34,590 bases of DNA, taken from positions 1 through 34,590 of the forward strand of contig JAURMD010000058.1 of NCBI GenBank assembly GCA_030830875.1. Reading direction: 5' to 3'. The position numbers and the translations under genes were made by a program. Within the stretch, counting starts at the first letter, position 1. Every line of letters starts with the position of its first letter. A model generated the notes under the pieces. The model ran no database searches. It saw only the letters and a list, made by a program, of their open reading frames with translations, and had not been told where the DNA came from. Shown in pieces: positions 4,325 through 18,200 of this stretch. This DNA comes from Thermoplasmatota archaeon. GTDB lineage: Archaea > Thermoplasmatota > Poseidoniia > Poseidoniales > Poseidoniaceae.

Positions 4325-4388
4325 GCCCAGCACAGGCCGAGGTTGATAGAGGAGGAGGCACTCCTTCCGAGAGGAGGTGGACGAAGGC

Positions 4389-5351
4389 ATGGACCCCTAC
4401 AAGATGGTCATCGCTGTGACCAATCAGAAGGGTGGTTGTGCCAAGACCACCACAGCGGTGAACCTGGCCGCGGCGCTCGCTCGTGGCTACGAGCGAATGG
4501 GGCTTCCTCCTGCCAAGGTGCTCCTCATCGACCTTGACCCGCAAGGGAATTGCGCGACATCGTTCGGTATTGAGAAAAAGCGCATCAAAAAGACAGCCTA
4601 CGATCTTTTGACCAACGATCTGGGTGAAGCGTTGCCGTTGATGGAGGATTACCTGCTCGACCCACAGGACCTCACGAACGCAATGAGGAACGCGTTCATG
4701 CTACGAAATGAAAAGCAGCGCCCACCGACCTCACTCACCACGGAGAACCTCTGGCTTCTTCCGAGCGACATCCACCTCTCCGGTGCAGAAATCGAACTTT
4801 CCCATAAGATTGGACGGGAAACCCGCCTACGTGAGGCCCTCGCACCGATTGTTGACAAGTTCGACTACATCATCATCGATACCCCTCCCTCGCTCGGCCT
4901 GCTTTCCATCAACGCCTTGAGTGCCGCAAACTGGGTGGTCGCACCTGTTCAGGCAGAATACTATTCTTTGGAAGGCTTCAGCATGATGATGAACTCGATT
5001 CAAATGATTCAACGAAGGATCAACCGCAACCTGAAATTCTTCGGGGTCGTGATGACGATGGTTGATGCTCGGTCTAAACTTTCAAGGCACGTCGTAGATC
5101 AAGTGACCCTCAAAATGCCCAACACCTTGTTCAACACATCCATTCGAAGGCTGGTGAACGTCGCTGAAGCGCCTTGGTCAGGAGCCCCTACCGTCCTGCT
5201 GAACAAGCCAAGCCCCAATGGCGCCGGTGCAGGATCGTTGGAATATTGGACCCTCGCAAAAGAGTTCCACGATCGGGTCCTCGCAATGCGGAACCAATTC
5301 GGCGTGACCGAACCGAATCGAGTGCTGCTGGAATCCCAAGGTCGCCGGTGA
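4389..5351 (+). CDS. ParA/Soj-family deviant Walker-A ATPase (long form with internal insert and C-terminal extension)
   Basis: Motifs VIAVTNQKGGCAKTTTAVNLAAALA (KGGxxKT), LLIDLDPQGN, LLPSDIHLSGAEIEL, YIIIDTPPSLG and PVQAEYYSLEG are present. The region between DLDPQGN and LLPS is about 25 aa longer than in typical Soj. The start could be 4377 (GTG), 4389 or 4404. Confidence 0.85.
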   Translation: MDPYKMVIAVTNQKGGCAKTTTAVNLAAALARGYERMGLPPAKVLLIDLDPQGNCATSFGIEKKRIKKTAYDLLTNDLGEALPLMEDYLLDPQDLTNAMRNAFMLRNEKQRPPTSLTTENLWLLPSDIHLSGAEIELSHKIGRETRLREALAPIVDKFDYIIIDTPPSLGLLSINALSAANWVVAPVQAEYYSLEGFSMMMNSIQMIQRRINRNLKFFGVVMTMVDARSKLSRHVVDQVTLKMPNTLFNTSIRRLVNVAEAPWSGAPTVLLNKPSPNGAGAGSLEYWTLAKEFHDRVLAMRNQFGVTEPNRVLLESQGRR

Positions 5352-5441
5352 CTGGATTGGCATCGGCGAATGCCTCTGAAACGGGCACCTCCCCACGCGC
5401 GGCTTAAGTAGCCTAGATGAAAGGCGAGAGTGGGATGCACG

Positions 5442-5684
5442 ATGACAGCCAAGGGGATGACCTCCGTTAGCGTAAGCTACGAAGTACGACGCCAGTTGAA
5501 CACCTTACGAACACACGGAGGGTACCGCAGCGTCGATGAGCTGCTGCAGGACCTCATCCGTCAGCACCGGATGGCGCGCATGGACGGCAGCCTTGGAACA
5601 CTTCGTGCTCGCGCAAAGGACGCTGCGGATGTGGACGTTGACCATCTGGTCGAGCGGCTGAAGTTGGCTCCGTTCCGGGTGTGA
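5442..5684 (+). CDS. small ribbon-helix-helix (CopG/Arc/MetJ-like) DNA-binding protein
   Basis: The N-terminus MTSVSVSYEVRRQLNTLRTHGGYRSVDELLQDLIRQH fits a beta-strand, helix, G-turn, helix pattern. The gene sits about 90 nt downstream of parA, with a weak TATA-like TTAAGTA at 5404-5410. The call rests on pattern only, without a homology search. Confidence 0.5.
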   Translation: MTAKGMTSVSVSYEVRRQLNTLRTHGGYRSVDELLQDLIRQHRMARMDGSLGTLRARAKDAADVDVDHLVERLKLAPFRV

Positions 5685-5944
5685 TTCACGTGATGAGTTG
5701 GAAGCCACCTCAGGTGGCCTTTGATGCAAAACACCTCGTGCGAGCCTTGTTTGACTCATCCACAGAAGAAGCTCGCCTCCTTGAAGTCGCGGCCCGAGGG
5801 GACATCGATATTGTCGCTAGCCGCGGAGCATGGAACGGTGTTCTTTGGCTGATTCAAAGCACGGTGAAGGACGGAGGGCGTCCGGTGTACAGTGGCGATG
5901 AACTGGCGAAATTGCGTGAGGATCTGCCCATCACCTGGACCTGA
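5681..5944 (+). CDS. hypothetical 87-aa protein, start overlapping the RHH gene stop (GTGA)
   Basis: The 4-nt start/stop overlap is typical of coupled pairs. The N-terminus VAFDAKHLVRAL...TEEARLLE...IDIVAS weakly resembles the first half of a PIN domain, but the protein is too short for a full one. The gene ends 8 nt from the convergent 795-aa gene. Confidence 0.4.
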   Translation: MIHVMSWKPPQVAFDAKHLVRALFDSSTEEARLLEVAARGDIDIVASRGAWNGVLWLIQSTVKDGGRPVYSGDELAKLREDLPITWT

Positions 5945-5952
5945 CCTGTCGC

Positions 5953-8340
5953 TCAGTCCTCGGCCTGCTTTGCCAGCCATTGGTGTCCGTAGTGTACCCA
6001 CTGCTCCTCGGTCCAGCCCTCGGGAAGTCCTGACTCCGGAACGGGTGGAGCGCTCGAGGGTGTTGCTTCCTCCTCAGGTAGGGGGGACGGCTCAGCAGGC
6101 GCTCGTTCCTCCTCAGCTTCGATCGCGGAGAACGCTTCTGTAGCCTCATCCTCGGGTGGGGTCGAGGGTGATTCAGGATCGCCGACGGGTTTCGATGCCT
6201 CTGACTCCATCGGGTCATCTTGCCAAAGGGCGTCCTCCTCCACACCGCCTCGTGCGGAGAGGCCTGCATGCCCGGTCAACGCTTCATCGGCGATGCTGTC
6301 GCCCTCGCCAAATCCAACGAAGGTCTTCTGCACCGCTGAGGCGGATAAGGCCCGCTTCTTGGACGTGGCAGACACCGTCAAGATCGCCGCGGTCATCCCA
6401 ACAAAAACGAGACCTGCAAGCATCGCAACCTGTTTGACTAGGCGAACGTCGAAGCCGCGAGCCCCTGCACCGTTGGCCACAGTGGCGTTCCAGTACGTGT
6501 ATGTCATTCGGCCGCGTTCTGATTCGTTTAGGGTTGAGAGGTAGTCCTGATACTCGACGCTGCGGATGCCAAGGCAGATGTCCCTGACATCGTCGAAGGC
6601 AAGTCGGCAATGGTCCTCGATGGTGGCGACCAAGGCGTTTGTATCGTTGTAATCCGTGCGTTGGCCGACCCCGTCTCCGTCTTGATCAAGGTGCTCGGTG
6701 GGATTGTCTGCCATGCCGTCGCCGACTTCGGATGCATCGGCCCACCCATCTCCGTCTTCATCTGGGCAACCAAACATGGCTTCAGACGTGTAGGTCGTGA
6801 CCTCCGCAATCACGGGAACCAAGGCCTGAATCGAAGCACCGGGCACCGTTGGACACGCATCAGGACGAACGCCATCCTGTGCATCACCATAGCCGTCACC
6901 GTCGCTGTCCGTCCACTGCGTACGCTCGTTGGGGAAGGCATCTGCGCCGTTGGCGACCGTCCATCCCTCATCTGGATCAGACCACCCGTCGAGGTCGCGG
7001 TCCGTGCAACCGCGTCGATCGTTTGTTGAGAATCCATTTGACGTGGGGCAATCGTCCGGCCGGTACCCAGCCGGGTTGTCGCCGTATCCATCACGGTCCT
7101 CGTCGGCCCATTGCGTTGGGTCTTCTGGAAAGACGTCCCCTTCAGGATCGTCGTCGTTGTCACCAACACCATCGCCGTCTGCATCCAACCATTGGTTTGG
7201 ATCGTCGGGGAAGGCATCGGGCATCGTTCCATCGGCTTCATCGCCGTAACCGTCCCCGTCACGGTCGGACCACTGCGAAGGATCATTCGGGAAAGCGTCC
7301 CCGTCGGTCGCGTCAGCATTGTCGCCGTATCCGTCTCCATCACCATCGGAGGATTGGTCAGCGTTGTTCGGGAACGCATCTTGGGCATCGGCGATTCCAT
7401 CGCCGTCCGAGTCAACGTCAAGCAGCCGAACACGTGTGCTTGAGGACGTGGTGCTTACGAGGTAGAGGCTCCCGTCTTCGTTGACGGTCACGGCAAGCAC
7501 GGAGCCCGTGGCTTGGAACGAGCCGATGATGCTGAGGGAACTGTCCACATGCCTCACGTGTCCATTCTGGTGACCTACATACGCTCCAAATCCTCCATCG
7601 AGGGAAATCGAAGTCACCGGCGTCGTGCTGCTCGACACGAAACCCCCCTGCCACGTCGTCGTGCTGTAGCGATGAACGGTACCGTCAGCGAGCCCAATCC
7701 AGAGGATCAGGCCATCCTCAACAAGGACCTTTACGGCCCCGCCCAGTCCAGTGATAAGGTCGTCCTGTGTTCCGTCGTCAGCGTGGATGAGCACGGTTCC
7801 GTCAAAGCCTCCCGTGAGGATTCGTCCATCGTCAAGCACGAGGAAGGAGGCCACCCCCCCGTTCATGACCGTCGTTCGCGCCCCTGAGGCTCCGAATTGG
7901 TCGTATTCGACGGCCTGACGGACACCGCCGTTGTGAACCAACCACAGGTCACCACCCGCGTCCCAATCGATGTGCTCGACGGGGTCAACCGTTGGGATGT
8001 CACGAACCACTTCATTGGAAGCGACCGAGAGGACCGTCGCGCCGTCGTCGTGGCCGACTGCTACGAGGCCCGCCGCAGCGTCAAAGCGTATGGTGTTCAC
8101 GCTCACGTTCGCATCGAGTTGTTTGGCCTTCTGGAGCACTCCAGCGACCCATTGATGCTCAACGATGGTACCAGAAGCATCGACGGTCAGCACGCCACCA
8201 TCGCCAAGGTCGTACCAAGCCATGACGCGGCTGTCGTTGTGAATTTCTCCTCCGTCAATCAAAGAGGCGGTGGCGGTCGAGGTCAACAACAGAAGCAGCA
8301 CGAAGCCCGCCACAAGCGAACGACGGTGAACCATGTCCAT
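5953..8340 (-). CDS. type-I membrane protein: signal peptide, DG-rich beta-propeller, thrombospondin-type-3 (DxDxDGxxD) Ca-binding repeats, one TM helix, acidic cytoplasmic tail
   Basis: The signal peptide is MDMVHRRSLVAGFVLLLLLTSTATA. At least six blade-like units carry G..DG(T/H)V motifs (res ~30-305). Nine DxDGDG(Y/V/W)(G/A)D units span res 308-565. The TM helix is VAMLAGLVFVGMTAAILTVSA (res 637-657). A 138-aa D/E/P-rich tail follows. Confidence 0.85.
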   Translation of the reverse strand: MDMVHRRSLVAGFVLLLLLTSTATASLIDGGEIHNDSRVMAWYDLGDGGVLTVDASGTIVEHQWVAGVLQKAKQLDANVSVNTIRFDAAAGLVAVGHDDGATVLSVASNEVVRDIPTVDPVEHIDWDAGGDLWLVHNGGVRQAVEYDQFGASGARTTVMNGGVASFLVLDDGRILTGGFDGTVLIHADDGTQDDLITGLGGAVKVLVEDGLILWIGLADGTVHRYSTTTWQGGFVSSSTTPVTSISLDGGFGAYVGHQNGHVRHVDSSLSIIGSFQATGSVLAVTVNEDGSLYLVSTTSSSTRVRLLDVDSDGDGIADAQDAFPNNADQSSDGDGDGYGDNADATDGDAFPNDPSQWSDRDGDGYGDEADGTMPDAFPDDPNQWLDADGDGVGDNDDDPEGDVFPEDPTQWADEDRDGYGDNPAGYRPDDCPTSNGFSTNDRRGCTDRDLDGWSDPDEGWTVANGADAFPNERTQWTDSDGDGYGDAQDGVRPDACPTVPGASIQALVPVIAEVTTYTSEAMFGCPDEDGDGWADASEVGDGMADNPTEHLDQDGDGVGQRTDYNDTNALVATIEDHCRLAFDDVRDICLGIRSVEYQDYLSTLNESERGRMTYTYWNATVANGAGARGFDVRLVKQVAMLAGLVFVGMTAAILTVSATSKKRALSASAVQKTFVGFGEGDSIADEALTGHAGLSARGGVEEDALWQDDPMESEASKPVGDPESPSTPPEDEATEAFSAIEAEEERAPAEPSPLPEEEATPSSAPPVPESGLPEGWTEEQWVHYGHQWLAKQAED
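6646..7419 (-). repeat. in-frame tandem coding repeats (TSP3-like D-A-F-P-x-D-P-x-Q-W-x-D-x-D-G-D-G-Y-G-D units)
   Basis: Five copies of the (D)(A/V)FPxxxxQWxD linker and nine DxDGDG loops are visible in the translation. This produces an obvious periodicity of GAYGG/GTCNCC strings in the DNA. Confidence 0.8.
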
Positions 8341-8352
8341 TGGTGCGTGCTT

Positions 8353-8370
8353 CGAGCCTTCAAAGGCTCG
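8353..8370 (-). other. perfect 6-bp/6-nt-loop hairpin in the 33-nt spacer between the coiled-coil gene stop and the membrane-protein start
   Basis: The sequence is CGAGCC-TTCAAA-GGCTCG on the plus strand, and the same stem forms on the mRNA strand. It lies 12 nt upstream of the ATG at 8340. No Shine-Dalgarno sequence is visible between the hairpin and the ATG. Confidence 0.35.
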
Positions 8371-8373
8371 TCC

Positions 8374-10935
8374 TCAGGCGTCGTCCGATGGTTCCTCGGA
8401 GGTCGCAGAGGGGAGGCGCAGGGGGCGCAGTGTGTGCACCGGTTGCAAGACCGTCGGAACCTGATCGGCGGCGACGCCGAGCACTGGCATGGCGGGCTTC
8501 AACCGTGCCGTGGCGGCGGGACCTCCAGCGGGCTGCATGGTTCGGATGGGTTGCAGGACTGGAGCATCAATCGGGATCGCATCGATGGTCGCATCGGGTT
8601 GAACCTTTGCTTCTTGGATGTCAACCTCAACGGTCGAATCAAGAACGCCTTGGACTTCCTCCATCATGTCCTCAAGCAGTTCCGCTTCAAGTTCGTCGGA
8701 CACCGCCATCATCTGGTCTTCAATGGAACCAGGAACTTCGGGTTCGGCCACAAGCTCGACCACGTCGACCTCGGTCTCGGATGTTTCAACGTCTGAAACC
8801 TCCACCTCAGGCTCGGGCATGTGAACGTCTGGAACCTCCACCTCAAGCACGGAGGCAGGGGGATCGAGTTCCGTCGCATGCTCCAAGGTTTCGAGGGCGT
8901 TCCCGACCGGTTCGCGCACAGGAGCGACGACCGGTGACTTGACCTGCTTCACGGGCTTGAAGATCGGTACCGGAGCAGAGGGGGCAAGGGTGCGAACCGT
9001 TGAGGTGGGGGCGCGCATTCCGGCGAGGCCCATCCGCGCAGGTTGCGCTTCGGCCGCCTGAGCAAGGGCCGTTAACGACGAACGACCAGCCGATGCGCCA
9101 AGGGCGTCGGGCCGTGCTCCGAGCGTACTGGCGTCTGCGGTTGCACCGAGGCCACCAACGCTTTGACCGGATATCGAGGAGAGCCACTGCTGCCTCTTGT
9201 CCATGCGTGCATCCGTGTCCTGAAGGCGAGCGAACTCGGCCTCTCGCTCTGCAAGGCGATCCTCTTCGCTGGCGACTTCACCTTCCACTTGCGAGGTGAT
9301 GCTCTCGCGCATGCGTTCCTCGGCCATGGCCTTGAATTCGTCCATCTTCTTGGAGAGCCCGGCTATACGGTCGCGTATTTCTGCACGCTTCAGCCCAAGT
9401 TGGCCCTCGATTTCTGCACGGATCCGTGCTTCCTTTCGACGCACGTCGATAAGCGCCTTGTTGCGCATGATTTCCTCACGCTTGTCCAACTGGCGCTCAA
9501 GTTGCGTGGCCACCTCGTCCATCTTCCGTTCTCGGAACGCGTTGAGACGTTCCTCCATGTCGAGTTCGAGTTCAAGCACCGTTTCCTCCTTGAGCAGGTC
9601 AAGGTCGGTGTCCCACGACAGCCGTTCATTGCGAAGGCTCGAATCCACCTCGGAGAGGATCGCTTTGCGTGCTGCAGCTTCACGGCTCTGGAATTCGAGT
9701 TCAAGTCGTTCGGTCCATTCCGTTCGCTTCGCCGCGTACTGCTCTTCGAGTTCAGCACGAATCTCTGCTTCTCGCTCGTAGCGGAACCGGGCCAACCGAT
9801 TCTGAATCTCGGATTCTCGCGCTGCTTGATAACGAGCGTAATCGTCCTCGTTCCGCTGTTCGAGGTCGGCTTCAACCTGAAGACGGAGCGCTTGCTCTAC
9901 CTCCTCCACTGCGTTGCCGTAGGTCAAATCGTAGCGCTCACGGAGGCGTGATTTTCGGTCCGCCAGTCGTTCGGAGAACTGCTGTTGGAGTTGAACCTCC
10001 ACCTCCCTTCGAAGTTCGTCGCGTCGACGTGCGATGGAGAGTTCAACGTCTTCTCGCATTCGAGCCTCAAGCGCCTCGGTCTCCCGGCGAAGGCGCTGTT
10101 CAAGTTCCTCCTGAATTTCGACCGCCAGGTTCGCCTCAAGCCGTTGGCTCCGGCGAGCGTATTCGGCACGAAGCGCCGCTTCACGCAGGCTCAGGCGCTG
10201 GCGAAGTTGTTGTTCAAGCCTCGTGCGGATGCCATGCCGCAGTTGGGATTCGCGCTCCGCAAGTTGCGCGTCTTGCTCATCCCGAAGGCGGGTGAGTTCG
10301 GCATCTTCCAAGGCAACAAAGCGCTGATTCATCTCCTCCTGAAGTTCCTCTTCGAAGGCCTGAATCCGTCGATGGAGGCGCTGGCGGTGCTCAAGATCAA
10401 GGCGTTGCCGCATCAGCTCCACACGCTGCTGATGCTCCTGCTCGAGCTGTTGGCGAAGGTCTTCGGCGAGTCGGTCGCGCTCCTCTTGCATTCGTCGATC
10501 GGTTTCCACTTCGAAACGCTGACGAAGGACCTCCAGTTCTCGTGAGAGCCGAGCCTCATATTCGTCACGCAAACGTGCTTCTTCGCGGGCAAAGGCCTCA
10601 CGACCTTCCTGAGCAAGCTCGGTCTCCATCGCTTCACGAAGTTCACGTTCAACCTCGGTGAGGGTTCGCTCACGATGCAGTTCCAAACTCGTCGCGAGGT
10701 TGGCTTGTTGGGCCTGCACGCGTTCTCGTAGTTCCGAATACCGAAGGCGACGTTCTCGCTTGAGATCGGAACGTAGGCGGTCTTCCGCACGGTAGCGCGC
10801 ACTCACACCAGCCTCGTCGTCGGTCGTCGTCGACGCCGCCCGAGTGAATTGGCCGCGAAGGGCGGCGAGGCTTCGCCGATCGTCCCCAGAAGCGAGGCGC
10901 CGGGGGAAAGGGCCCTCTGCATCGTTCACGACCAT
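8374..10935 (-). CDS. 853-aa charged coiled-coil / single-alpha-helix-like protein with A/G/S/P linker and acidic C-terminal region
   Basis: Residues ~46-585 are almost exclusively E/R/Q/L/A/D with no Pro and rare Gly (for example ELEQRLRRETEALEARMREDVELSIARRRDELRREVEVQLQQQF). Residues 586-685 are rich in A/G/S/P. Residues 686-775 are acidic, followed by a P/V/Q-rich end. There is no TM helix, signal peptide or enzymatic motif. The call is by composition only. Confidence 0.8.
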   Translation of the reverse strand: MVVNDAEGPFPRRLASGDDRRSLAALRGQFTRAASTTTDDEAGVSARYRAEDRLRSDLKRERRLRYSELRERVQAQQANLATSLELHRERTLTEVERELREAMETELAQEGREAFAREEARLRDEYEARLSRELEVLRQRFEVETDRRMQEERDRLAEDLRQQLEQEHQQRVELMRQRLDLEHRQRLHRRIQAFEEELQEEMNQRFVALEDAELTRLRDEQDAQLAERESQLRHGIRTRLEQQLRQRLSLREAALRAEYARRSQRLEANLAVEIQEELEQRLRRETEALEARMREDVELSIARRRDELRREVEVQLQQQFSERLADRKSRLRERYDLTYGNAVEEVEQALRLQVEADLEQRNEDDYARYQAARESEIQNRLARFRYEREAEIRAELEEQYAAKRTEWTERLELEFQSREAAARKAILSEVDSSLRNERLSWDTDLDLLKEETVLELELDMEERLNAFRERKMDEVATQLERQLDKREEIMRNKALIDVRRKEARIRAEIEGQLGLKRAEIRDRIAGLSKKMDEFKAMAEERMRESITSQVEGEVASEEDRLAEREAEFARLQDTDARMDKRQQWLSSISGQSVGGLGATADASTLGARPDALGASAGRSSLTALAQAAEAQPARMGLAGMRAPTSTVRTLAPSAPVPIFKPVKQVKSPVVAPVREPVGNALETLEHATELDPPASVLEVEVPDVHMPEPEVEVSDVETSETEVDVVELVAEPEVPGSIEDQMMAVSDELEAELLEDMMEEVQGVLDSTVEVDIQEAKVQPDATIDAIPIDAPVLQPIRTMQPAGGPAATARLKPAMPVLGVAADQVPTVLQPVHTLRPLRLPSATSEEPSDDA

Positions 10936-10978
10936 CCCATCCCAGCGGCAAAGCCGCTAATGACGCCACATCCGCGTC

Positions 10979-10991
10979 TTTTCATACATAA
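10979..10991 (-). promoter_or_regulatory. TATA-box-like TTATGTATGAAAA upstream of the coiled-coil gene
   Basis: This is the only AT-rich stretch in the 116-nt spacer, about 44 nt upstream of the ATG at 10935. A 6-bp hairpin AGCGGC-AAA-GCCGCT (10944-10958) lies between it and the start codon. Confidence 0.3.
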
Positions 10992-11051
10992 GGTGAACGA
11001 TGACGAAGGCCCCGCAGCCCTCCGGTTTGAAAGGGCCGCTTTCGAGCCGGT

Positions 11052-11444
11052 TCAGAAATTGATGGCAAATCCAGTGTCGCAGGCAGGGCAGGAGATTTCC
11101 CTTCGTCCCGGCCGGCGGTTCATGCGCAGGCGACGGTCGCAACTCGGGCAAGCCACTTCGATCTTCGCCTGCTTCGGCGTGATGAGAAACTCTTCGCTGC
11201 AGGAGCCGCATCGGAGCAGGGCAGGGCGGTCTTCAACACCGGCAACCAAGACTTTGCTGCAACCTGGACAGGCGACCTTCTCTTCAGCCCACGCCCGGCG
11301 CGTCCCGGGATGATCAACACGCACCCGCGCATCGCACAACACACACGTCAGCTCACCCAAACCCATGGGAAGCATCCCCTTGCATCGGGGACAACTGAGG
11401 ACAGGGGCCTCAACGGAGGATTCGACCTCCTTTCGCTCGTCCAT
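11052..11444 (-). CDS. triplicated zinc-ribbon protein (six CxxC pairs)
   Basis: From the ATG at 11444 the CxxC pairs are C18/C21, C34/C37, C59/C62, C79/C82, C99/C102 and C119/C122. That gives three ribbon units spaced about 40 residues apart. The longer track ORF (start 11522) would overlap the ATPase 3' end by 47 nt. Confidence 0.7.
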   Translation of the reverse strand: MDERKEVESSVEAPVLSCPRCKGMLPMGLGELTCVLCDARVRVDHPGTRRAWAEEKVACPGCSKVLVAGVEDRPALLRCGSCSEEFLITPKQAKIEVACPSCDRRLRMNRRPGRREISCPACDTGFAINF

Positions 11445-11475
11445 GCAGAGAGCATGAGGTTCCCCCTCTTGGAGT

Positions 11476-14118
11476 TCACGACGACCAACGCGCAGCAACG
11501 AGGCGCAACGAGATTCGAACATCGTCCATCAAGGCCTTGAACGTGCCTCGAAGGAGGTCGGCCCACCCGTCCGAACCTGCAAGGCGGGCTCCGTTCAGGA
11601 TGACGACGATCACCGACATCTCGTGCACAAGGACGCCGACCCACAATTGATCGTACCACCCGTTGATCACTGCGAAGACGAGCACGACGGTCACGCCGAT
11701 GGAGAACATCAGGTTGAATGCTAACGTACGCTGAGCGGATCGTGCCATCTGAACGAGGGTCGAGATCATCCGGGGATCATCGCCGGGGATGAGCACGTCC
11801 GCCGCATCGAGGTTGACTTGTTCCCCTGTGCCGACCGCTACCCCGACGTCTGCCCTTGCGAGGGCTCCAGCATCGTTGAAGCCGTCACCTACCATCATGG
11901 TGACGTGGGTCTGACCACGCTCTTCCACGAAGCGAACCTTTTGTTCAGGAGATAGTCCGCCGTGCGCCGCTCCCGCCGGCATTCCAACTTTCTTCGCAAA
12001 AGCGTCGACGGCCGATTGGAGGTCGCCAGAGAGGATTTCGACGTTCACGCCTTGCCGATACAGCGCCTGAACGAGGCCATCTGCTCCTTCCCGGCCATCG
12101 TCATGAACGAAGGTCAGGAGAGCGTGTGCCTCCGTCCCTCGGCACAGCACGCTCACGCCGTGACCGGATTCGCTCGCTTTCCGAAGGCCCTCTTCTAATT
12201 CGTCGCACAAACTCACGCCCTTCGGCAAGGAATCGGGTCGATGCAAACCCACGTCATCACCGCGGTATCGCCCAACCACGCCAGCGTTCACGTCGCGTAG
12301 GTCACTCACTGTTGTGGGATCGATGCCTTCGGAGGCAAGCAGGTCCTGTACGGCCAGCGCATAGGGATGCGACGAGCCCGCTTCCAATCCACCTACGAGG
12401 CGAAGCACGGCCTCACGTCGCCTTCCCTTCGCAAGGTGGACTTCGCCTACGGTTGGCCTTCCGCTCGTCAACGTCCCTGTTTTGTCCAGCAGCACGTGGT
12501 CCACCTTGGCCATCCGTTCCATCGCCTGTCCACCGGTCACAATGGCGCCGAGATGCGCAGACCGGGCGAGCACGGCGGCGTGCGGCACAGGCGCAGCCAG
12601 CAGCAACGCACAGGGGCAGGCAACCACCCAAAGCAGGAGCATCAATTTCCAGTTCGTGCGGTCGACGAACCACCAGATGGCGACGCTTCCGAACAGCACC
12701 AGGGGGACCCAGATGGCGGTGAAGCGCTCGATGGACCCTTGCAGTCGAGGTGGCTCCTCTCGGAAGGTGTGCACGGCCTCAATGAGGCCAGCGAGACGGG
12801 TGCCGTCTCCCGTTGCTGTCACCTCAACCTCGACGGGACCCCTGTGGAGCACAAGTCCGGCGCTGAGGTCATCGCCAACCTGAACGTCGACAGGCACGGA
12901 TTCGCCCGTCAGTGGTGCCGTGTCAAGGCTCCCGCTACCTTCGACAATCCGACCGTCGGCTGGGATCAACTCACCAGAGCGAATCTGGAGCCGGTCCCCG
13001 ACACGCACCGCATCGATGGGAACGTCTTCCCAGTCATGAGGGGAAGCAAGGTGAGGCGTCGTCATGGTGGGGGCGGATTCCGTAGCGAGCGTGAGCCGAA
13101 CGCCCTTCCCGATGCGCTTGGGCGGGGCCGTCGACCGCCGCGCCGTTCGTGGAAGGCGGTCGAGGCCCCCTTGCATGGCTTCGCGGGCACGAACAAGGGC
13201 ATCCCCCTCGAGGTGTTGGGTGAACGCCACAAGAATCACAACGATGAGCGCCTCTTCCCACATCCCGAGGATGACCGCCCCGAACACAGCCAACGAGGTC
13301 AGCACCTGAAATCCGACCTGACGTTGACGAAGCCCTGCAACGGCCTCAGACACCATTTCAGCACCTCCTGCTACGACCCCCATCAACGAAACAACAGCCA
13401 CGAACAGCGGACCTGCTCCCACCGCCTCTAGCAAGAGCACCAACGGAAGGATCAACGTCGCGACCGTGCCTCCTACGAGGCGCCGCTGGTCGGGGCGAAG
13501 GCGCTCTGAAGACGTCGCCCGATACACAGCAGAACGCCCAAGCAAACGGCTGATTGCTTCGTCTCGGTCACGGATGAGACCGGAGGGGGCGTCAGGCACG
13601 AGTTGGAGCAGCACACGATCATCGCGCGTCACCTCTGCGTCGAGCACTCCGGGTTGACGACGAAGCAAACGATCGACTCGGGACACGGGAATTCCGTGCC
13701 TGGTCGCCAATTCCCGTGCGGATACACCCTTCAACTCCTGATGCCTCACGTCAGGCGCGTGCCCAAGCGACCTCAGCACACGAGCAACCTCAGCCACCGA
13801 GCCAAGAGCGAGGTCGACCTCAACCCGAACTTCACCGCTTGTCGGAGAAACGATGGTGGACCCCACCTGCTCAAGGTGTCCGAGTGCGCGCGTAGCTTTG
13901 GAGGCGCAATCGGGACAATCCATACCGACCAGAGGCCATGCCATGATGTGGGTGCCCGATGCGTCGAGCAAAATTTCAGCGTCCAGCACGTCCATGGGAA
14001 CGGATGGCGTTTCGCTCGGTGCGCTGGATACGGCATGGGGAGCAAGAGAAGGCCCAGGTTCAATCGCCGGGCCGGTGGACGTTCCAATGGCGATGAAGAC
14101 CTCGTTTTCCTCGCCCAT
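11476..14118 (-). CDS. P1B-type heavy-metal-translocating P-type ATPase
   Basis: It has an N-terminal HMA domain GMDCPDCASKATRAL, a TM CPC motif (VVACPCALLLA), the phosphorylation site DKTGTLT, the SSHPYA (HP) motif and the hinge MVGDGFNDAGALARADVGVAVG. Confidence 0.92.
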   Translation of the reverse strand: MGEENEVFIAIGTSTGPAIEPGPSLAPHAVSSAPSETPSVPMDVLDAEILLDASGTHIMAWPLVGMDCPDCASKATRALGHLEQVGSTIVSPTSGEVRVEVDLALGSVAEVARVLRSLGHAPDVRHQELKGVSARELATRHGIPVSRVDRLLRRQPGVLDAEVTRDDRVLLQLVPDAPSGLIRDRDEAISRLLGRSAVYRATSSERLRPDQRRLVGGTVATLILPLVLLLEAVGAGPLFVAVVSLMGVVAGGAEMVSEAVAGLRQRQVGFQVLTSLAVFGAVILGMWEEALIVVILVAFTQHLEGDALVRAREAMQGGLDRLPRTARRSTAPPKRIGKGVRLTLATESAPTMTTPHLASPHDWEDVPIDAVRVGDRLQIRSGELIPADGRIVEGSGSLDTAPLTGESVPVDVQVGDDLSAGLVLHRGPVEVEVTATGDGTRLAGLIEAVHTFREEPPRLQGSIERFTAIWVPLVLFGSVAIWWFVDRTNWKLMLLLWVVACPCALLLAAPVPHAAVLARSAHLGAIVTGGQAMERMAKVDHVLLDKTGTLTSGRPTVGEVHLAKGRRREAVLRLVGGLEAGSSHPYALAVQDLLASEGIDPTTVSDLRDVNAGVVGRYRGDDVGLHRPDSLPKGVSLCDELEEGLRKASESGHGVSVLCRGTEAHALLTFVHDDGREGADGLVQALYRQGVNVEILSGDLQSAVDAFAKKVGMPAGAAHGGLSPEQKVRFVEERGQTHVTMMVGDGFNDAGALARADVGVAVGTGEQVNLDAADVLIPGDDPRMISTLVQMARSAQRTLAFNLMFSIGVTVVLVFAVINGWYDQLWVGVLVHEMSVIVVILNGARLAGSDGWADLLRGTFKALMDDVRISLRLVAARWSS

Positions 14119-14977: not shown

Positions 14978-15061
14978 GCGGGGATCGCCAAGCTTGGTCA
15001 ACGGCGCTGCGTTCAGGTCGCAGTCCTCAACGGTTCGCAGGTTCGAATCCTGCTCCCCGCA
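14978..15061 (+). tRNA. tRNA-Leu (anticodon CAG), class II with long variable arm
   Basis: The hand fold gives acceptor GCGGGGA/TCCCCGC, D stem GCC/GGC, anticodon stem CTGCG/CGCAG, loop TTCAGGT (CAG, G37), a 13-nt variable arm, T arm GCAGG-TTCGAAT-CCTGC and discriminator A. A TATA-like TTGATAA sits at 14944-14950. Confidence 0.85.
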
Positions 15062-15141
15062 CTCCCTGAACTTCAGAGCCTCTTCGCAGGCTCGATACCT
15101 CTCCTCCGACGAACGTGCTCCCGCTCACCTCACGCGATAGG

Positions 15142-15223
15142 TGCCGGGAGCAGGATTCGAACCTGCGAAGGCGTAGCCAGCGGATCTTGAGTCCGACCCC
15201 TTTGACCGCTCGGGAATCCCGGC
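15142..15223 (-). tRNA. tRNA-Leu (anticodon CAA), class II with long variable arm
   Basis: The reverse complement folds with acceptor GCCGGGA/TCCCGGC, D stem CCC/GGG and anticodon loop CTCAAGA (CAA, G37). The variable arm is GGC-TAC-GCC and the T arm is GCAGG-TTCGAAT-CCTGC. There is one U:C mismatch at the top of the anticodon stem. Confidence 0.8.
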
Positions 15224-15250: not shown

Positions 15251-18200
15251 TCATTCTTCCTCGGAGAACGGAGGTGGCGCTGGTCGAGATGGCGGGGTGT
15301 CCGATGGGCGTTGAGCGTTGGCGAGCCAGAGGCTGACCACCGCCAGCACGACCGCGATCGCCCCAAGCCCTACCCATGCAGCGCCTTGCCCTTCGCGGGA
15401 GGTGGAGGCTACGGACACGTCAGCCAATGGAACCGGAACGTCAACGGCACCGACATCGAGCGTCATTCGAAGGCCAAGGTCGCCTTCACGCCACGCTTCC
15501 GCACTCCAAACCAGACGCTGGCGCTCGCCCGGTTCCAACCAGACTGAAGCCTCATTGAGCAACTGACCATCGTCGTCAAACATGCGGACGGTCACGTTTC
15601 CTGCCAGCACGCCTGCATTTGCCACTTCGAAGGCCACATCGATCATATCACCGACCTGAGGCCGGTAGGGTGCGGCCACCAGGGAACTCAAGACCGGTTC
15701 AAACGCCACCCAACGCATCGTAACAGGAATCGGTTCAATGGATGTACCTTGCCCGACAAGGGGCCTTCCTGAGGCATCGGCCGCACTGAACCATAGCTGC
15801 CATGCATCGCCGCTCCGAAGGTCGAATTCGACGGTGGGGGTCATGTTCAACATCGCAGCGTGACGAGTTGAGGCGCCATCGATGGTGACGAACTCAAGCG
15901 CTTGGAATCCCTTCGCTGCGTCCATCGCCCGTCCCTGCCGAAGCAAGACCCAATGGGCGACCACGCCTTCAACAATGAGGGACTCGATGTCCGTGACCGT
16001 CACCTCCACGGGGACGGCATCGAGGGCATCGCTGTCCACAGCGAGCGACCGGACACCACCTAGGTCAAGACGAGGGGCGTGTACATCGATGCTGACGTTC
16101 CACGACAAGGTCAGGTTGCCAAAGGACCATCCGTCGATCATCACCTCAAACTGGCCCGTGGTTCGAACCCATACGGAAGGGTCGAAGGCGATTCGGAGTT
16201 CTGGAGTTCCATCATCAGGTACGTCGATACTTCCGCCAGTTACCCGGGCGCCATCGGTCATCGACCATTCAAGGTTCACTGCACCAGGCAATTTCTGGGC
16301 TGGGAGCGTCGTCCCCTCATGGAACAGAGCCAAGCGAACATTCACCACATCACCTCGGTCGACATGGATCACGTCCTGCACAACGCCACCTGTCGGTGCG
16401 GTCGTGTCCACGATGTCCTCCAAGGAGAGCGTCACTTCGGGTCGGGCAGTCCATGCGAGTGGGGCAATTCGGCGCAAACCAAGGCCGAGGTCCTGCCCTT
16501 CGTCTCGCACCTGCAGGGACGGCTGGAAGGTGCCGTCCTCCAACCCGGCGACGAGGTCCCAACGAAGACGGAAGCCGACTTCAACCTCCCATGTCGAAGG
16601 ACGGGTCTGCAGGATGGTGACGTCGGGAGCTCCATGGAAGCAACCCGCATCGGCAGTCGTTTCGTTCGCTCGAGGGCGATGCACAACGACGCAGGATGCT
16701 TCATCGGCCCCAAGAAGGCCGAATTCGAAAGCATCGAGGCTTTCGATTCCGTTGGCGTCCACGAGGTCGAATCCAAAGACGTGCCTTGAGCCGGGGAAGA
16801 GGCGCCCGTTCACCGAATCCATTCGAAGGCGCTCGGTCGGCACCGACGTGGGGTACCGAGGTTCAAGACGCACTTCTGCAAGAGGGAGACCTGTTTTGCT
16901 GCCACCTCCGACGAGGGCTTGTCCTGCGATGTCTTCGCCGTTCACGACGAGACGGATTCGGCCAAGTGCACCGCCGTCCTCGATGACGTCTTCCGCGTCA
17001 ATCAACGGCAAGTCGAGTTCCACGACGGTGCGGCCTTCGGCGACGGGAACAACAACCGCAACCCACTCATTCTCGTCGCTCAATCCATCCCTGTTGGCGT
17101 CGTCCCTCGCCTCAAGCCACGTCCATACCGTCAGGGGTGAAGCGAATCCAAGATCGTCCTCCGCCATCAACACCAGCGCGACGTCGCTGTCCGCTGGCGC
17201 GACGTGCCCATCTGCAGGTTGGCGACCTCCCGGGTCAAGCACTTCAACGGACATCAACGTTGGAGGCGAAGCGTCATGCACGAGGGTGACGTTGGGCACT
17301 TGGCCGCGCAATTCGCACGTCAACGAAGGTGAGGCAATCGGCCCACAACGCTGCACTTCAATGCCAACCTGGAGGGAGGCGCCTCCAGCCACAGCAGTGG
17401 CTGCAGGAGACGTCAGGTTGGCGGTGAACCAACCCTCATCTTGCACGTCCACCGTCGAGCTGTCGCTCCACCCGCTTCCTTCGAGACGAACGAGAAGGCT
17501 CGCATCGTGGGCAGAAGGGAAGCGCTGAGCCAATCCTTCCATCCGGAGTCGACCCGTCACAGTGAGCGGTGTTTCAGGGGCCACTTCGAACGGCCACAAG
17601 GGCGAAGTCCAATCATGCAGTTGGCGCCCTCTGTCGTCCACCACGATGAGCACGTCAACCTCGAGGTCGTTTTCGACGTCGTTTCCGGTGACCGTCATTG
17701 AACGCTGCACCGGACCGGTGGCGAAACCGTCCTCATCCTGAGCCTCGGTCCACCAGATCAACTTCGCCACGTCATCAAAGGCCCAGGTGGAGGTCAACCG
17801 CCACTCGATCCGGCATGACGTTCTGTCGCACGACGAGGTGGACGTGGCCTCGAGTGCAGCGAAGCCTGCCCCTGCGTCCTGCCTGAAGACTGGCGTTGCC
17901 TCGTTCAGACGTTCCACATGAACGGTGCCGACCGCCGTTCCAACGTTGGGCCCAAAACTGAGCATCGCGGTGCGAAGGGCAGGCACCGAGGCGGCAGCAT
18001 CGCGTGGATCTTCCCGTCGATGCTCAGTGACCACCGTCACCGTTTGACCGGGGGTCCAACTTGTGACCGGTACCGCCACAATCTGTTCGTACAATCGGCT
18101 TTGGCTCTCAAGGTGGAGCGCGACGTCCACAGCACCTCGGTCGGTGCTGACCCACAGTTCAAGCGAATGCTGGGCCGATGGGAGAAGGGAACGCCTCGCC

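What the first reader, a model, noticed from the sequence alone, without database searches (positions are those of the whole stretch)
5953..10935. Tightly linked pair of a giant cytoplasmic charged coiled coil and a beta-propeller/TSP3 type-I membrane protein: candidate trans-envelope scaffold with no described counterpart
Seen in sequence: the 853-aa coiled-coil gene (8374-10935) and the 795-aa membrane-protein gene (5953-8340) are co-directional and only 33 nt apart. That spacer holds a perfect hairpin and no obvious promoter. The only TATA-like element lies upstream of the coiled-coil gene (10979-10991). The membrane protein exposes a propeller and a Ca-binding repeat array outside the cell. 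Inside, it has only a 138-aa acidic tail with a Trp-rich end. The coiled-coil protein has no signal peptide, TM helix or enzymatic motif. It consists of about 540 residues of charged helix, a flexible A/G/S/P linker and an acidic/Pro-rich tail with duplicated short motifs. Inference: the pair could form a membrane-spanning assembly in which an extracellular Ca-dependent binding module is coupled to a long cytoplasmic rod acting as cytoskeletal tether, ruler or envelope organiser. I know of no characterised archaeal system with this architecture. The upstream triple zinc-ribbon gene may belong to it. However, the spacing (31 nt to the ATPase versus 116 nt plus a TATA to the coiled-coil gene) suggests it is transcribed with the ATPase instead.
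Basis: partly seen in the sequence, partly recalled or inferred. Interest (0 to 1): 0.75.

Follow-up and report, generated by a model that had tools for sequence, protein, structure and literature searches.

The report
Conserved archaeal rod and membrane-receptor gene pair
Marine Group II archaea, among the most abundant microbes in the surface ocean, all keep the same two undescribed genes side by side: one for a cell-surface protein with a short, almost invariant tail inside the cell, and one for a fixed-length rod about 80 nm long built on a rare 19-residue helical repeat; the two probably form an envelope-anchored internal scaffold, but that is inferred, not shown.

Summary

The genes stay adjacent in every related genome tested: 71 of 71 Poseidoniales loci with enough flank. 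This covers 37-100% identity and 35-60% GC, and it holds where the flanking genes are rearranged.

The rod protein matches no Pfam, NCBIfam, PADLOC or PDB entry. A profile search of 1.84 billion proteins found only its own family, so SMC and Rad50 are excluded.

Two claims need correcting:
- **The rod is not a heptad coiled coil.** About 400 residues follow an unbroken 19-residue (19/5 = 3.80) repeat with a 76-residue super-repeat, and 21 orthologues show no indels across about 570 residues.
- **The spacer is not promoter-free.** The hairpin sits on a position-locked TATA-like box found 24-31 nt upstream of the membrane gene in 68 loci. That gene probably has its own leaderless promoter.

A new lead: in at least three divergent lineages (one carries a Thalassarchaeaceae, MGIIb, annotation) the membrane protein's cytoplasmic tail carries a true SAP (DNA-binding) domain.

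The best reading is an envelope-anchored cytoplasmic scaffold or hub. Physical contact between the two proteins is untested.

The parts
8374..10935 (-). Rod protein (CC) gene, 853 aa; an undescribed family specific to Poseidoniales
   Evidence: ORF. It has 58 homologues, all annotated hypothetical. The profile search found only its own family. There are no Pfam, NCBIfam, PADLOC or PDB matches.
10982..10991 (-). TATA box of the CC gene (TTATGTATGA); an SD-like GGGATGGGA lies just before the ATG, at about 10936-10944
   Evidence: Conserved as cgcgctccTTAT(C/G)TATGA plus GGATGGGAT in nearly all related loci; L084 is the one exception.
10843..10869 (-). Conserved N-terminal short motif LxxLRxQFT (CC residues 23-31) within an otherwise disordered N-terminus
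   Evidence: L23, L26, R27 and T31 are invariant. AF2 pLDDT is below 50 for residues 1-44.
9436..10746 (-). Nonadecad (19/5) repeat rod, CC residues about 64-500; hydrophobic positions 2, 6, 10, 14 and 17 of each 19-mer; 76-residue super-repeat
   Evidence: Fourier peak at 3.80 with power 5.8-8.5, against a shuffle maximum of 1.9. Autocorrelation peaks at every multiple of 19. The family profile shows no indels.
9346..9606 (-). Most conserved helical core of CC (residues 444-530; DLDLLKEET...QLERQLDKREEIMRNKALIDVR...); candidate docking surface
   Evidence: Dense run of invariant columns. The periodicity changes after about residue 480.
8377..9171 (-). Disordered, acidic C-terminal region of CC (residues 589-853) with repeated [LIM]xP[VIL] short motifs and an acidic end
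   Evidence: AF2 pLDDT below 50. Motif enrichment of 3-7 per orthologue against about 1 expected. Net charge -29.
8341..8373 (-). CC-MP spacer; hairpin at 8353-8370, whose centre (TTTGAAGG, 8357-8364) is the positional homologue of the conserved TATA-like box of the MP gene
   Evidence: The homologous start is probably the second Met (ATG at 8334, MVHRR...), which places the box at -30 to -23.
5953..8340 (-). Type I membrane protein (MP) gene, 795 aa
   Evidence: ORF. Thousands of orthologues of about 800 aa in Poseidoniales.
7420..8247 (-). Extracellular 7-bladed WD40-type beta-propeller (MP residues 32-307), preceded by a signal peptide (residues 1-26, 8263-8340)
   Evidence: AF2 pLDDT about 90. 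PDB profile hits to WD40 and PQQ propellers. Foldseek E about 1e-14 to WD40 propellers.
6646..7419 (-). Array of nine DxDxDG (TSP3-like) Ca-binding-type motifs with invariant Cys pairs (MP residues 308-565)
   Evidence: Motif and Cys positions. Invariant D/G columns. No Pfam TSP_3 hit.
6361..6429 (-). Transmembrane helix (MP residues 638-660), followed by KKR on the cytoplasmic side
   Evidence: Hydropathy and sequence. AF2 helix 632-667.
6223..6285 (-). Conserved juxtamembrane cytoplasmic motif EALxGxxGLSAxGG..D..W (MP residues 686-706)
   Evidence: Invariant columns E686-W706.
5974..6048 (-). Near-invariant C-terminal cytoplasmic motif PPxPxxGLPxGWTxxQWxxYGxxWL (MP residues 765-789); predicted amphipathic aromatic helix
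   Evidence: Invariant columns. Present once per locus, at the MP C-terminus, in every locus that contains the MP 3' end, 74 loci in all. AF2 helix 778-793 with pLDDT about 83.

Best explanation
The two genes form a conserved module specific to Poseidoniales (Marine Group II).

**MP, the membrane protein (shown).** It is a type I surface protein. A WD40-type propeller and an array of Ca-binding-type DxDxDG repeats face outward. A single TM helix leads to an acidic cytoplasmic tail of about 135 aa. The two short motifs in that tail are the most conserved parts of the protein.

**CC, the rod protein (shown).** It is cytoplasmic. A helical rod of about 540 residues (about 80 nm) has a strictly conserved length. 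Roughly 400 of those residues follow an uninterrupted 19-residue (19/5) repeat of the kind that gives right-handed supercoiling, with a 76-residue super-repeat. The rod is capped by a short conserved N-terminal motif and a disordered C-terminal region holding several LxPV-type short motifs.

**Proposed mechanism (inferred).** MP acts as an envelope-anchored landmark. Its invariant tail motifs recruit cytoplasmic partners, and CC is the prime candidate. CC oligomerises into a fixed-length rod or filament that serves as a sub-membrane tether or scaffold.

In several MP lineages (one carries a Thalassarchaeaceae annotation) the same tail carries a SAP (DNA-binding) domain. A conserved ParA gene also lies close by. 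The scaffold's job is therefore most likely spatial organisation of cytoplasmic contents, nucleoid included, relative to the envelope. This would resemble HubP/FimV or Scy in bacteria.

The two genes are probably started from separate promoters, with possible read-through.
For: **Adjacency**
- MP lies directly downstream on the same strand in 71 of 71 Poseidoniales loci with more than 2.6 kb of flank (69 under a strict gap rule, and the other 2 are alignment truncations).
- The same holds in the most divergent lineages L003, L086, L088 and L089.
- Spacers range from -11 to 84 nt, median 57.
- The pair persists where ParA/MoxR are inverted (L004, L005, L029). It also persists where 2.5 to at least 5.8 kb of other genes separate CC from the zinc-ribbon/ATPase genes (L022, L026, L035).
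- The family spans 35-60% GC.

**Cytoplasmic partner expected**
- The MP tail motifs are invariant (P765, P766, P768, G771, L772, P773, G775, W776, Q780, W781, Y784, G785, L789).
- The motif is found in every locus that contains the MP 3' end.
- Its C-terminal part is predicted to be a helix with pLDDT about 83.

**Rod properties**
- The hydrophobic period is exactly 3.80 in all 21 orthologues, and the strongest lags are 76, 152 and 38.
- Positions 2, 6, 10, 14 and 17 are 86, 65, 71, 42 and 60% hydrophobic.
- Across residues 45-590 there is one insertion column (a single residue in one sequence), and none across 20-44.
- AF2 gives helices 51-288, 296-438 and 445-588.

**SAP lead**
- PF02037 scores E = 1.5e-13 (50.5 bits, cutoff 23.9) in the tail of the L086 MP.
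- PF02037 is also precomputed for P0364-P0368, P0387, P0388 and P0412, which are 37-84% identical to the L086 MP.
- Each such MP has a CC orthologue with 3.80 periodicity directly upstream.

**Precedent**
- ParA binds the non-canonical CC51 coiled coil of Scy (PMC3718342).
Against: - There is no direct evidence that the MP tail binds CC.
- Distance-matrix co-evolution gave a CC-MP partial r of 0.45. That is no higher than CC-ParA (0.64) or MP-ATPase (0.72).
- The whole neighbourhood, from the ATPase to NDK, is syntenic in this order. Adjacency alone therefore carries limited weight.
- Each gene has its own promoter-like element.
- The MP tail (-26), the CC rod (-23) and the CC tail (-29) are all strongly acidic. 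Any contact must be motif-specific rather than electrostatic.
- SAP occurs only in some lineages and is absent from the window's protein.
- The two small ORFs next to ParA gave no DNA-binding or SegB match.
- AF2 pTM for CC is 0.24. The oligomeric state and handedness are inferred from sequence only.
Confidence: 0.4

Rival explanations
1. The genes are neighbours by inheritance only. MP is a stand-alone surface adhesin or receptor, one of the 'thrombospondin' adhesion genes reported for Poseidoniales. Its tail motifs serve sorting, turnover or another partner. CC has an unrelated cytoplasmic role. Adjacency would simply reflect the strongly conserved gene order of this genomic region.
For: - The whole block (ATPase ... 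CC, MP, two small ORFs, ParA, MoxR, aIF5B, NDK) is syntenic across the order.
- Each gene has a separate promoter-like element.
- The mirror-tree signal is not specific to the pair.
- Rinke et al. list widespread thrombospondin genes as adhesion factors in Poseidoniales (PMC6461757).
Against: - CC-MP is the only junction in the block that no insertion or inversion has broken in more than 70 species-level genomes. Both flanks are rearranged in some of them.
- Spacers are short, and some predicted ORFs overlap.
- The cytoplasmic motifs are more conserved than the ectodomain, which argues for a conserved intracellular partner.
Confidence: 0.3
2. CC is mainly a ParA-associated nucleoid or segregation scaffold, analogous to Scy, TipN or PopZ. 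It would work with the neighbouring ParA. MP would be at most its membrane or pole anchor, or a SAP-bearing DNA tether in some lineages.
For: - A ParA gene lies about 600 nt beyond the MP stop in nearly all loci.
- A SAP domain is present in the MP tails of at least three lineages.
- Scy's non-canonical coiled coil binds ParA (PMC3718342).
Against: - ParA/MoxR are inverted as a unit in L004, L005 and L029, and ParA is separated from MoxR by an inserted gene in L088. ParA is therefore not tightly coupled to the pair.
- The two small ORFs between MP and ParA match no ParB, SegB or RHH family.
- No DNA-binding motif was detected in CC. The HTH_34 hit has E = 0.021 and scores below its cutoff.
Confidence: 0.2
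3. CC is a divergent member of a known long coiled-coil ATPase family (SMC, Rad50 or Sph-like), or of a known cytoskeletal family.
For: Only the general look of a long charged helix.
Against: - There is no Walker or ABC head, and the N- and C-termini are disordered.
- There are zero Pfam or NCBIfam hits above cutoff.
- There are zero PDB sequence hits at E <= 1 and zero Foldseek hits.
- The profile search of 1.84 billion proteins returned only the family itself and its fragments.
Confidence: 0.02

Closest known systems
Scy / FilP (Streptomyces coiled-coil cytoskeletal proteins with the non-canonical CC51 repeat)
   Same: Each is a long prokaryotic rod protein whose helix follows a regular non-heptad repeat over hundreds of residues. 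Scy's non-canonical domain binds ParA and organises polarity (PMC3718342). Here a ParA gene is a conserved neighbour.
   Different: Scy uses 51 residues per 14 turns (about 3.64). This rod uses 19 residues per 5 turns (3.80), which is far more right-handed. There is no sequence similarity. The lineage is archaeal. A dedicated membrane-protein gene is a conserved partner.
HubP / FimV-type polar landmark proteins of Vibrio and Pseudomonas (comparison from my own knowledge, not tested here)
   Same: Each has an extracytoplasmic anchoring domain, a single TM helix, a highly acidic cytoplasmic region and a conserved C-terminal motif that recruits ParA-like ATPases and other clients.
   Different: HubP has a LysM domain and long cytoplasmic repeats. 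MP has a WD40 propeller, DxDxDG repeats and a tail of only about 135 aa. No homology was detected.
Right-handed coiled coils with non-heptad periodicity (tetrabrachion stalk 11/3, YadA/SadA 15/4 segments, A/V-ATPase peripheral stalk)
   Same: The hydrophobic periodicity is above 3.63, which implies right-handed supercoiling. The coiled-coil library paper lists 19/5 = 3.8 as a recognised 'nonadecad' periodicity (PMC8016460).
   Different: The examples named in that paper for such periodicities are fragments or short stretches. Here the 19/5 register runs in phase for about 21 repeats (about 400 residues) and is conserved without indels. No structure exists for it.
Thrombospondin type 3 repeat / WD40-propeller surface proteins of Poseidoniales ('thrombospondin genes' in Rinke et al. 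2019)
   Same: There are DxDxDG Ca-binding-type repeats on an exported protein. A presumed adhesion role has been proposed for the group (PMC6461757).
   Different: That paper does not describe this architecture, its invariant cytoplasmic tail motifs, the SAP variants or the linked rod gene. The Pfam TSP_3 model itself does not hit the window protein.

Membership tests
SMC / Rad50-like coiled-coil ATPases | N- and C-terminal ABC-type ATPase head halves (Walker A/B, signature motif) flanking the coiled coil | tested here: not met
   No Pfam or NCBIfam hit. The termini are disordered and carry only short motifs. There are no PDB sequence hits at E <= 1.
Canonical (heptad) coiled coil | Hydrophobic periodicity of 3.5 residues (a/d positions of a 7-residue repeat) | tested here: not met
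   Power at 3.5 is about 0.03-0.28, against 6.7-8.5 at 3.80, in all 21 orthologues.
Right-handed nonadecad (19/5) coiled coil | Hydrophobic core positions recurring every 19 residues over 5 turns (period 3.80), in register | tested here: met
   Positions 2, 6, 10, 14 and 17 are 86, 65, 71, 42 and 60% hydrophobic over 24 repeats in 21 sequences. Autocorrelation peaks at all multiples of 19.
Right-handed nonadecad (19/5) coiled coil | Actual oligomeric, right-handed supercoiled bundle structure | not testable with these tools
   Only a monomer AF2 model was possible (pTM 0.24). This needs a multimer prediction, a crystal or cryo-EM structure, CD, or SEC-MALS.
Single alpha-helix (ER/K SAH) domain | Charged E/K/R helix essentially lacking a regular hydrophobic seam | tested here: not met
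   Residues 45-585 are 12.8% Leu, and hydrophobic residues sit at fixed positions forming an arc of about 76 degrees.
WD40-type beta-propeller | Seven four-stranded blades; profile and fold similarity to WD40 propellers | tested here: met
   AF2 gives 28 strands over residues 32-307 with pLDDT about 90. PDB profile hits reach 3e-14. Foldseek E is about 1e-14 with TM-score (target) 0.6-0.74. Individual Pfam WD40 models score below their cutoffs.
Thrombospondin type 3 (TSP_3) repeats | Match to PF02412; DxDxDGxxDxxD Ca-binding loops | tested here: inconclusive
   Nine DxDxDG motifs with invariant D/G columns, but no PF02412 hit at E <= 0.1 for the window protein. PF02412 is precomputed only for some longer TSP3-rich paralogues.
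Type I membrane protein | Cleavable N-terminal signal peptide, one TM helix, N-out/C-in topology | tested here: met
   Hydrophobic N-terminus ending ATA|SL. Single TM at 638-660 followed by KKR. Six invariant Cys and the Ca-type repeats lie on the N-terminal side. No dedicated signal-peptide predictor was available.
SAP-domain (HeH) DNA-binding proteins | Match to PF02037 above the gathering score | tested here: not met
   The window MP tail has no hit even at E <= 10. The feature is met only in orthologues: L086 scores E = 1.5e-13 and 50.5 bits against a cutoff of 23.9, and PF02037 is precomputed for P0364-P0368, P0387, P0388 and P0412.
Operon (co-transcribed pair) | Single promoter upstream of the first gene, none in the spacer | tested here: not met
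   A position-locked TATA-like box lies at -31 to -24 from the MP start in 68 loci. The same motif is the MoxR TATA.
Anti-phage defence systems (PADLOC) | Match to any PADLOC model | tested here: not met
   No hits for CC, MP, the zinc-ribbon protein or the two small ORFs.

The most novel reading that the evidence does not exclude
MP and CC together form an archaeal envelope-to-nucleoid linkage. The MP tail motifs dock a fixed-length (about 80 nm), right-handed 19/5 coiled-coil rod. The rod's 76-residue super-repeat (about one supercoil turn) would present periodic binding sites. In the lineages whose MP tail carries SAP, the tail would also bind DNA directly. This would give Marine Group II cells a surface-anchored hub that positions the chromosome and ParA-type ATPases. 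It would be a functional analogue of HubP/Scy, or loosely of LINC/HeH membrane-chromatin tethers, built from entirely new parts, and CC would be the longest natural nonadecad coiled coil.
Probability: 0.15. Interest if true: 0.85.

Novelty: new variant of a known kind. Interest (0 to 1): 0.62.

Why it matters
Poseidoniales are among the most abundant archaea in the surface ocean and none is cultured, so nothing is known of their cell architecture.

A near-universal, order-specific pair of this kind is a concrete candidate for a cell-organising structure in this lineage. One partner is an exposed surface receptor with an invariant cytoplasmic docking tail. The other is a length-conserved internal rod.

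The rod also matters to structural biologists. A 400-residue, indel-free 19/5 repeat would test how much right-handed supercoiling a natural coiled coil can sustain.

The SAP-bearing tails give a directly testable hypothesis of membrane-DNA tethering in an archaeon.

Tried and rejected
- **SMC, Rad50 or any known family for CC.** Pfam, NCBIfam, PADLOC, PDB sequence profile, Foldseek against PDB, and a HMMER profile search of 1.84 billion proteins all found nothing outside the family.
- **Hairpin as terminator or regulatory stem.** It is not significant against shuffles, no T-run follows it, and it is not conserved.
- **Mirror-tree co-evolution of CC and MP.** The partial correlation of 0.45 is no higher than that of other gene pairs, so the test is uninformative.
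- **MP tail or CC tail as known domains.** There is no Pfam hit even at E <= 10.
- **Other genes near the pair carrying the GWTxxQWxxYG motif.** In the window the motif occurs only at the MP C-terminus. In the related loci it occurs once per locus, at the MP C-terminus.
- **The two small ORFs between MP and ParA as SegB-, ParB- or RHH-type proteins.** They are conserved families, but they have no Pfam or PDB profile match. The RHH-like and PIN-like look of their N-termini is only my reading.
- **Sigma-70 promoter scan.** It is irrelevant for an archaeon and found nothing.
- **Literature.** No paper in the library links Poseidoniales to this rod protein. Only general mentions of thrombospondin adhesion genes were found.


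Full report
**1. What is in the sequence**

The window is from a high-GC (60%) member of Candidatus Poseidoniaceae (Marine Group II archaea). The closest genome loci, at 83-84% protein identity, are Poseidoniaceae MAGs.

The two ORFs lie on the minus strand as reported: 8374-10935 (853 aa, 'CC') and 5953-8340 (795 aa, 'MP'). They are separated by 33 nt. Upstream lie a triple zinc-ribbon gene (11052-11522) and a P-type ATPase gene (11476-14118); the two overlap by 47 nt. Immediately downstream of MP, on the opposite strand, are two small ORFs, then ParA, MoxR and aIF5B.

**2. The membrane protein (MP)**

- AlphaFold2 with a 24-sequence alignment gives a confident 7-bladed propeller at residues 32-307 (pLDDT about 90).
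- It also gives a low-confidence repeat region, a small helical domain (574-625), a TM helix, and a C-terminal helix at 778-793 with pLDDT about 83.
- The propeller is of the generic WD40/PQQ type. PDB profile hits reach 3e-14 and Foldseek E is about 1e-14.
- Residues 308-565 hold nine DxDxDG motifs and six invariant Cys. The TM helix is 638-660, followed by KKR. The ectodomain has net charge -89 and the tail -26.
Pfam's TSP_3 model does not hit, so 'TSP3-like' is the accurate wording.

The most conserved parts of the protein are cytoplasmic. One is a juxtamembrane motif, EALxGxxGLSAxGG..D..W. The other is a C-terminal motif, PPxPxxGLPxGWTxxQWxxYGxxWL, with 13 invariant positions across 24 orthologues that are 40-78% identical. 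That motif occurs once per locus, at the MP C-terminus, in every locus that contains the MP 3' end (74 loci).

**3. The rod protein (CC)**

CC has no hydrophobic segment (maximum KD19 of 1.03). It has no Pfam, NCBIfam or PADLOC hit above cutoff. It has no PDB sequence hit even at E <= 1 and no Foldseek hit.

A HMMER profile search of 1.84 billion representative proteins returned 174 hits. All are the same family or fragments of it. The family is confined to Poseidoniales as far as HMMER can see.

AF2 predicts helices 51-288, 296-438 and 445-588 and a disordered 590-853.

The helix is not a heptad coiled coil:
- The hydrophobic Fourier spectrum has one sharp peak at 3.80 residues, with power 5.8 against a shuffle maximum of 1.9. 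There is nothing at 3.5.
- BLOSUM autocorrelation peaks at every multiple of 19, and is strongest at 76 and 38.
- Written in rows of 19, hydrophobic residues fall at positions 2, 6, 10, 14 and 17. At family level these are 86, 65, 71, 42 and 60% hydrophobic. The register holds from about residue 83 to 481 and continues across both helix breaks that AF2 predicts.
- All 21 orthologues give exactly 3.80, with 76 or 152 among the top lags. So do the divergent L086, L088 and L089 proteins.

19/5 = 3.8 is the recognised 'nonadecad' periodicity, which implies tight right-handed supercoiling (PMC8016460). The term occurs in only four papers of the library.

The hydrophobic seam would drift through one full turn in roughly 70-80 residues. 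The 76-residue super-repeat plausibly equals one supercoil turn; this is my inference.

Across residues 45-590 the 21 orthologues, at 38-50% identity, contain a single one-residue insertion in one sequence, and across 20-44 none. The C-terminal region, by contrast, is riddled with indels. Rod length (about 80 nm) is therefore under strict selection.

Residues 444-530 are nearly invariant. The disordered tail carries 3-7 [LIM]xP[VIL] motifs per protein, against about 1 expected, and ends in acidic residues.

**4. Synteny**

- A genome-collection scan found CC relatives in 294 species-level genomes. The best 80 are essentially all labelled Poseidoniales, Poseidoniaceae or a broader archaeal rank. 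One record, titled Salinimicrobium sp., is probably mis-binned.
- MP lies directly downstream on the same strand in all 71 loci with enough flank.
- The same holds in the most divergent lineages: L003 (35% GC), L086 (its MP carries a Thalassarchaeaceae annotation), L088 and L089.
- The whole region is syntenic, which weakens adjacency as evidence.
- The CC-MP junction is nevertheless the one that never breaks. ParA/MoxR are inverted in L004, L005 and L029. Five unrelated genes sit upstream of CC in L022 and L026, and 2.5 kb is inserted between the zinc-ribbon gene and CC in L035.

**5. Transcription signals**

The spacer is not promoter-free. Sixty-eight unique loci were aligned on the signal-peptide Met. 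They carry TTCATAT(T/C), TTGATAA or TTCAAGG at a fixed -31 to -24, and the A+T fraction there reaches 0.9-1.0 against 0.1-0.3 in the flanks. The same TTCATATA motif is the TATA box upstream of the unrelated MoxR gene in relatives. That spacing is what a leaderless archaeal transcript needs.

In the window, the centre of the 'perfect hairpin' (TTTGAAGG, 8357-8364) is the positional homologue of this box. The homologous start codon is probably the second ATG (8334, MVHRR...).

The hairpin itself is unremarkable. It folds at -14.2 kcal/mol with z = -1.67, and 13 of 200 shuffles fold as well. No T-run follows it. It is conserved only in L006 and L007.

The pair is therefore best described as two tandem genes with separate promoters and possible read-through.

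**6. A new lead: SAP domains in the tail**

In L086 the MP tail contains a SAP domain, with PF02037 at E = 1.5e-13 and 50.5 bits against a cutoff of 23.9 (residues 751-783). It sits between the acidic linker and the invariant C-terminal motif.

PF02037 is also recorded for P0364-P0368, P0387, P0388 and P0412. These share only 37-40% identity with the L086 MP, and one of them has the other type of juxtamembrane motif. All have a CC orthologue directly upstream.

A nucleic-acid-binding module recurs at the same position of a cytoplasmic tail. This indicates that the tail operates next to DNA or the nucleoid in at least part of the order.

**7. Interpretation**

Shown:
- the architectures of both proteins;
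- their restriction to one order;
- invariant adjacency;
- the invariant cytoplasmic motifs;
- the fixed-length 19/5 rod;
- separate promoter-like elements;
- the SAP variants.

Inferred: the MP tail recruits CC, and the assembly is an envelope-anchored scaffold or hub that organises cytoplasmic contents, possibly the nucleoid and ParA.

Evidence against a direct link:
- the uninformative mirror-tree test;
- the acidity of all the candidate surfaces;
- the general synteny of the region.

I put about 0.4 on a physically coupled scaffold. I put about 0.3 on inherited adjacency of functionally separate genes. I put about 0.2 on a ParA- or nucleoid-centred role for CC, which overlaps with the first.

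**8. Comparison with known systems and novelty**

The nearest functional analogues are Scy/FilP, which have a regular non-heptad CC51 repeat, and Scy binds ParA (PMC3718342). HubP/FimV-type landmarks also resemble MP in having an extracytoplasmic anchor, one TM helix, an acidic tail and a C-terminal motif; that comparison rests on my own knowledge. Neither is homologous to the proteins here.

MP probably falls among the 'thrombospondin' adhesion genes noted for Poseidoniales (PMC6461757). The pair, the tail motifs, the SAP variants and the rod are not described in any paper I could find.

I rate it a new variant of a known kind: a long coiled-coil scaffold with a membrane landmark. It is built from two undescribed families, and the rod is structurally unusual.

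Noticed in passing
window 5430-5684 (+) and 5681-5944 (+): Two small overlapping ORFs (84 and 87 aa) converge on the MP stop, 8 nt away. Both are conserved at this position across Poseidoniales, and they stay put even where ParA/MoxR are inverted. The first begins with a strand-then-helix pattern (MTSVSVSYEVRRQL) that looks RHH-like. The second resembles the N-terminal half of a PIN domain in some orthologues (YVVDASIIVKGL). No Pfam or PDB profile match was found.
   Followed up: partly
window 10992-11010 and equivalent positions in loci L001-L085: The DNA around the CC promoter (gtcgcgctccTTATCTATGAtgaga) is conserved at nucleotide level across genomes whose CC proteins are only about 47% identical. 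That is more than a TATA box alone would need, so it may include a BRE or a regulator site.
   Followed up: no
window 11476-11522: The zinc-ribbon ORF start overlaps the 3' end of the P-type ATPase ORF by 47 nt. In relatives an ArsR-type HTH gene and/or a CDP-alcohol phosphatidyltransferase gene can sit between the ATPase, the zinc-ribbon gene and CC (L001, L003, L088).
   Followed up: partly
window 14978-15062 (+) and 15140-15223 (-): Two convergent tRNA-Leu genes (CAG and CAA anticodons) lie between the HAD-hydrolase gene and a 2075-aa ORF (15251-21478, minus strand). The orthologue of that ORF in L001 carries a faint InhA-like MAM hit, so it is probably a giant surface protein.
   Followed up: no
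window 4377-5351 (+): The ParA-type ATPase is 324 aa, longer than typical Soj/ParA. It appears to carry an internal insertion and a C-terminal extension (my reading of the sequence), and its length is conserved at about 314-321 aa across the order.
   Followed up: no
L012 (CAXRAI010000058.1): A contig with the full Poseidoniales CC-MP block is deposited under the bacterial name 'Salinimicrobium sp.'. It is probably a mis-binned contig.
   Followed up: no
L088 11513-12199: In this lineage, whose MP tail carries SAP, an AIM24-family gene is inserted between ParA and MoxR. This shows that the ParA-MoxR junction is also breakable.
   Followed up: no
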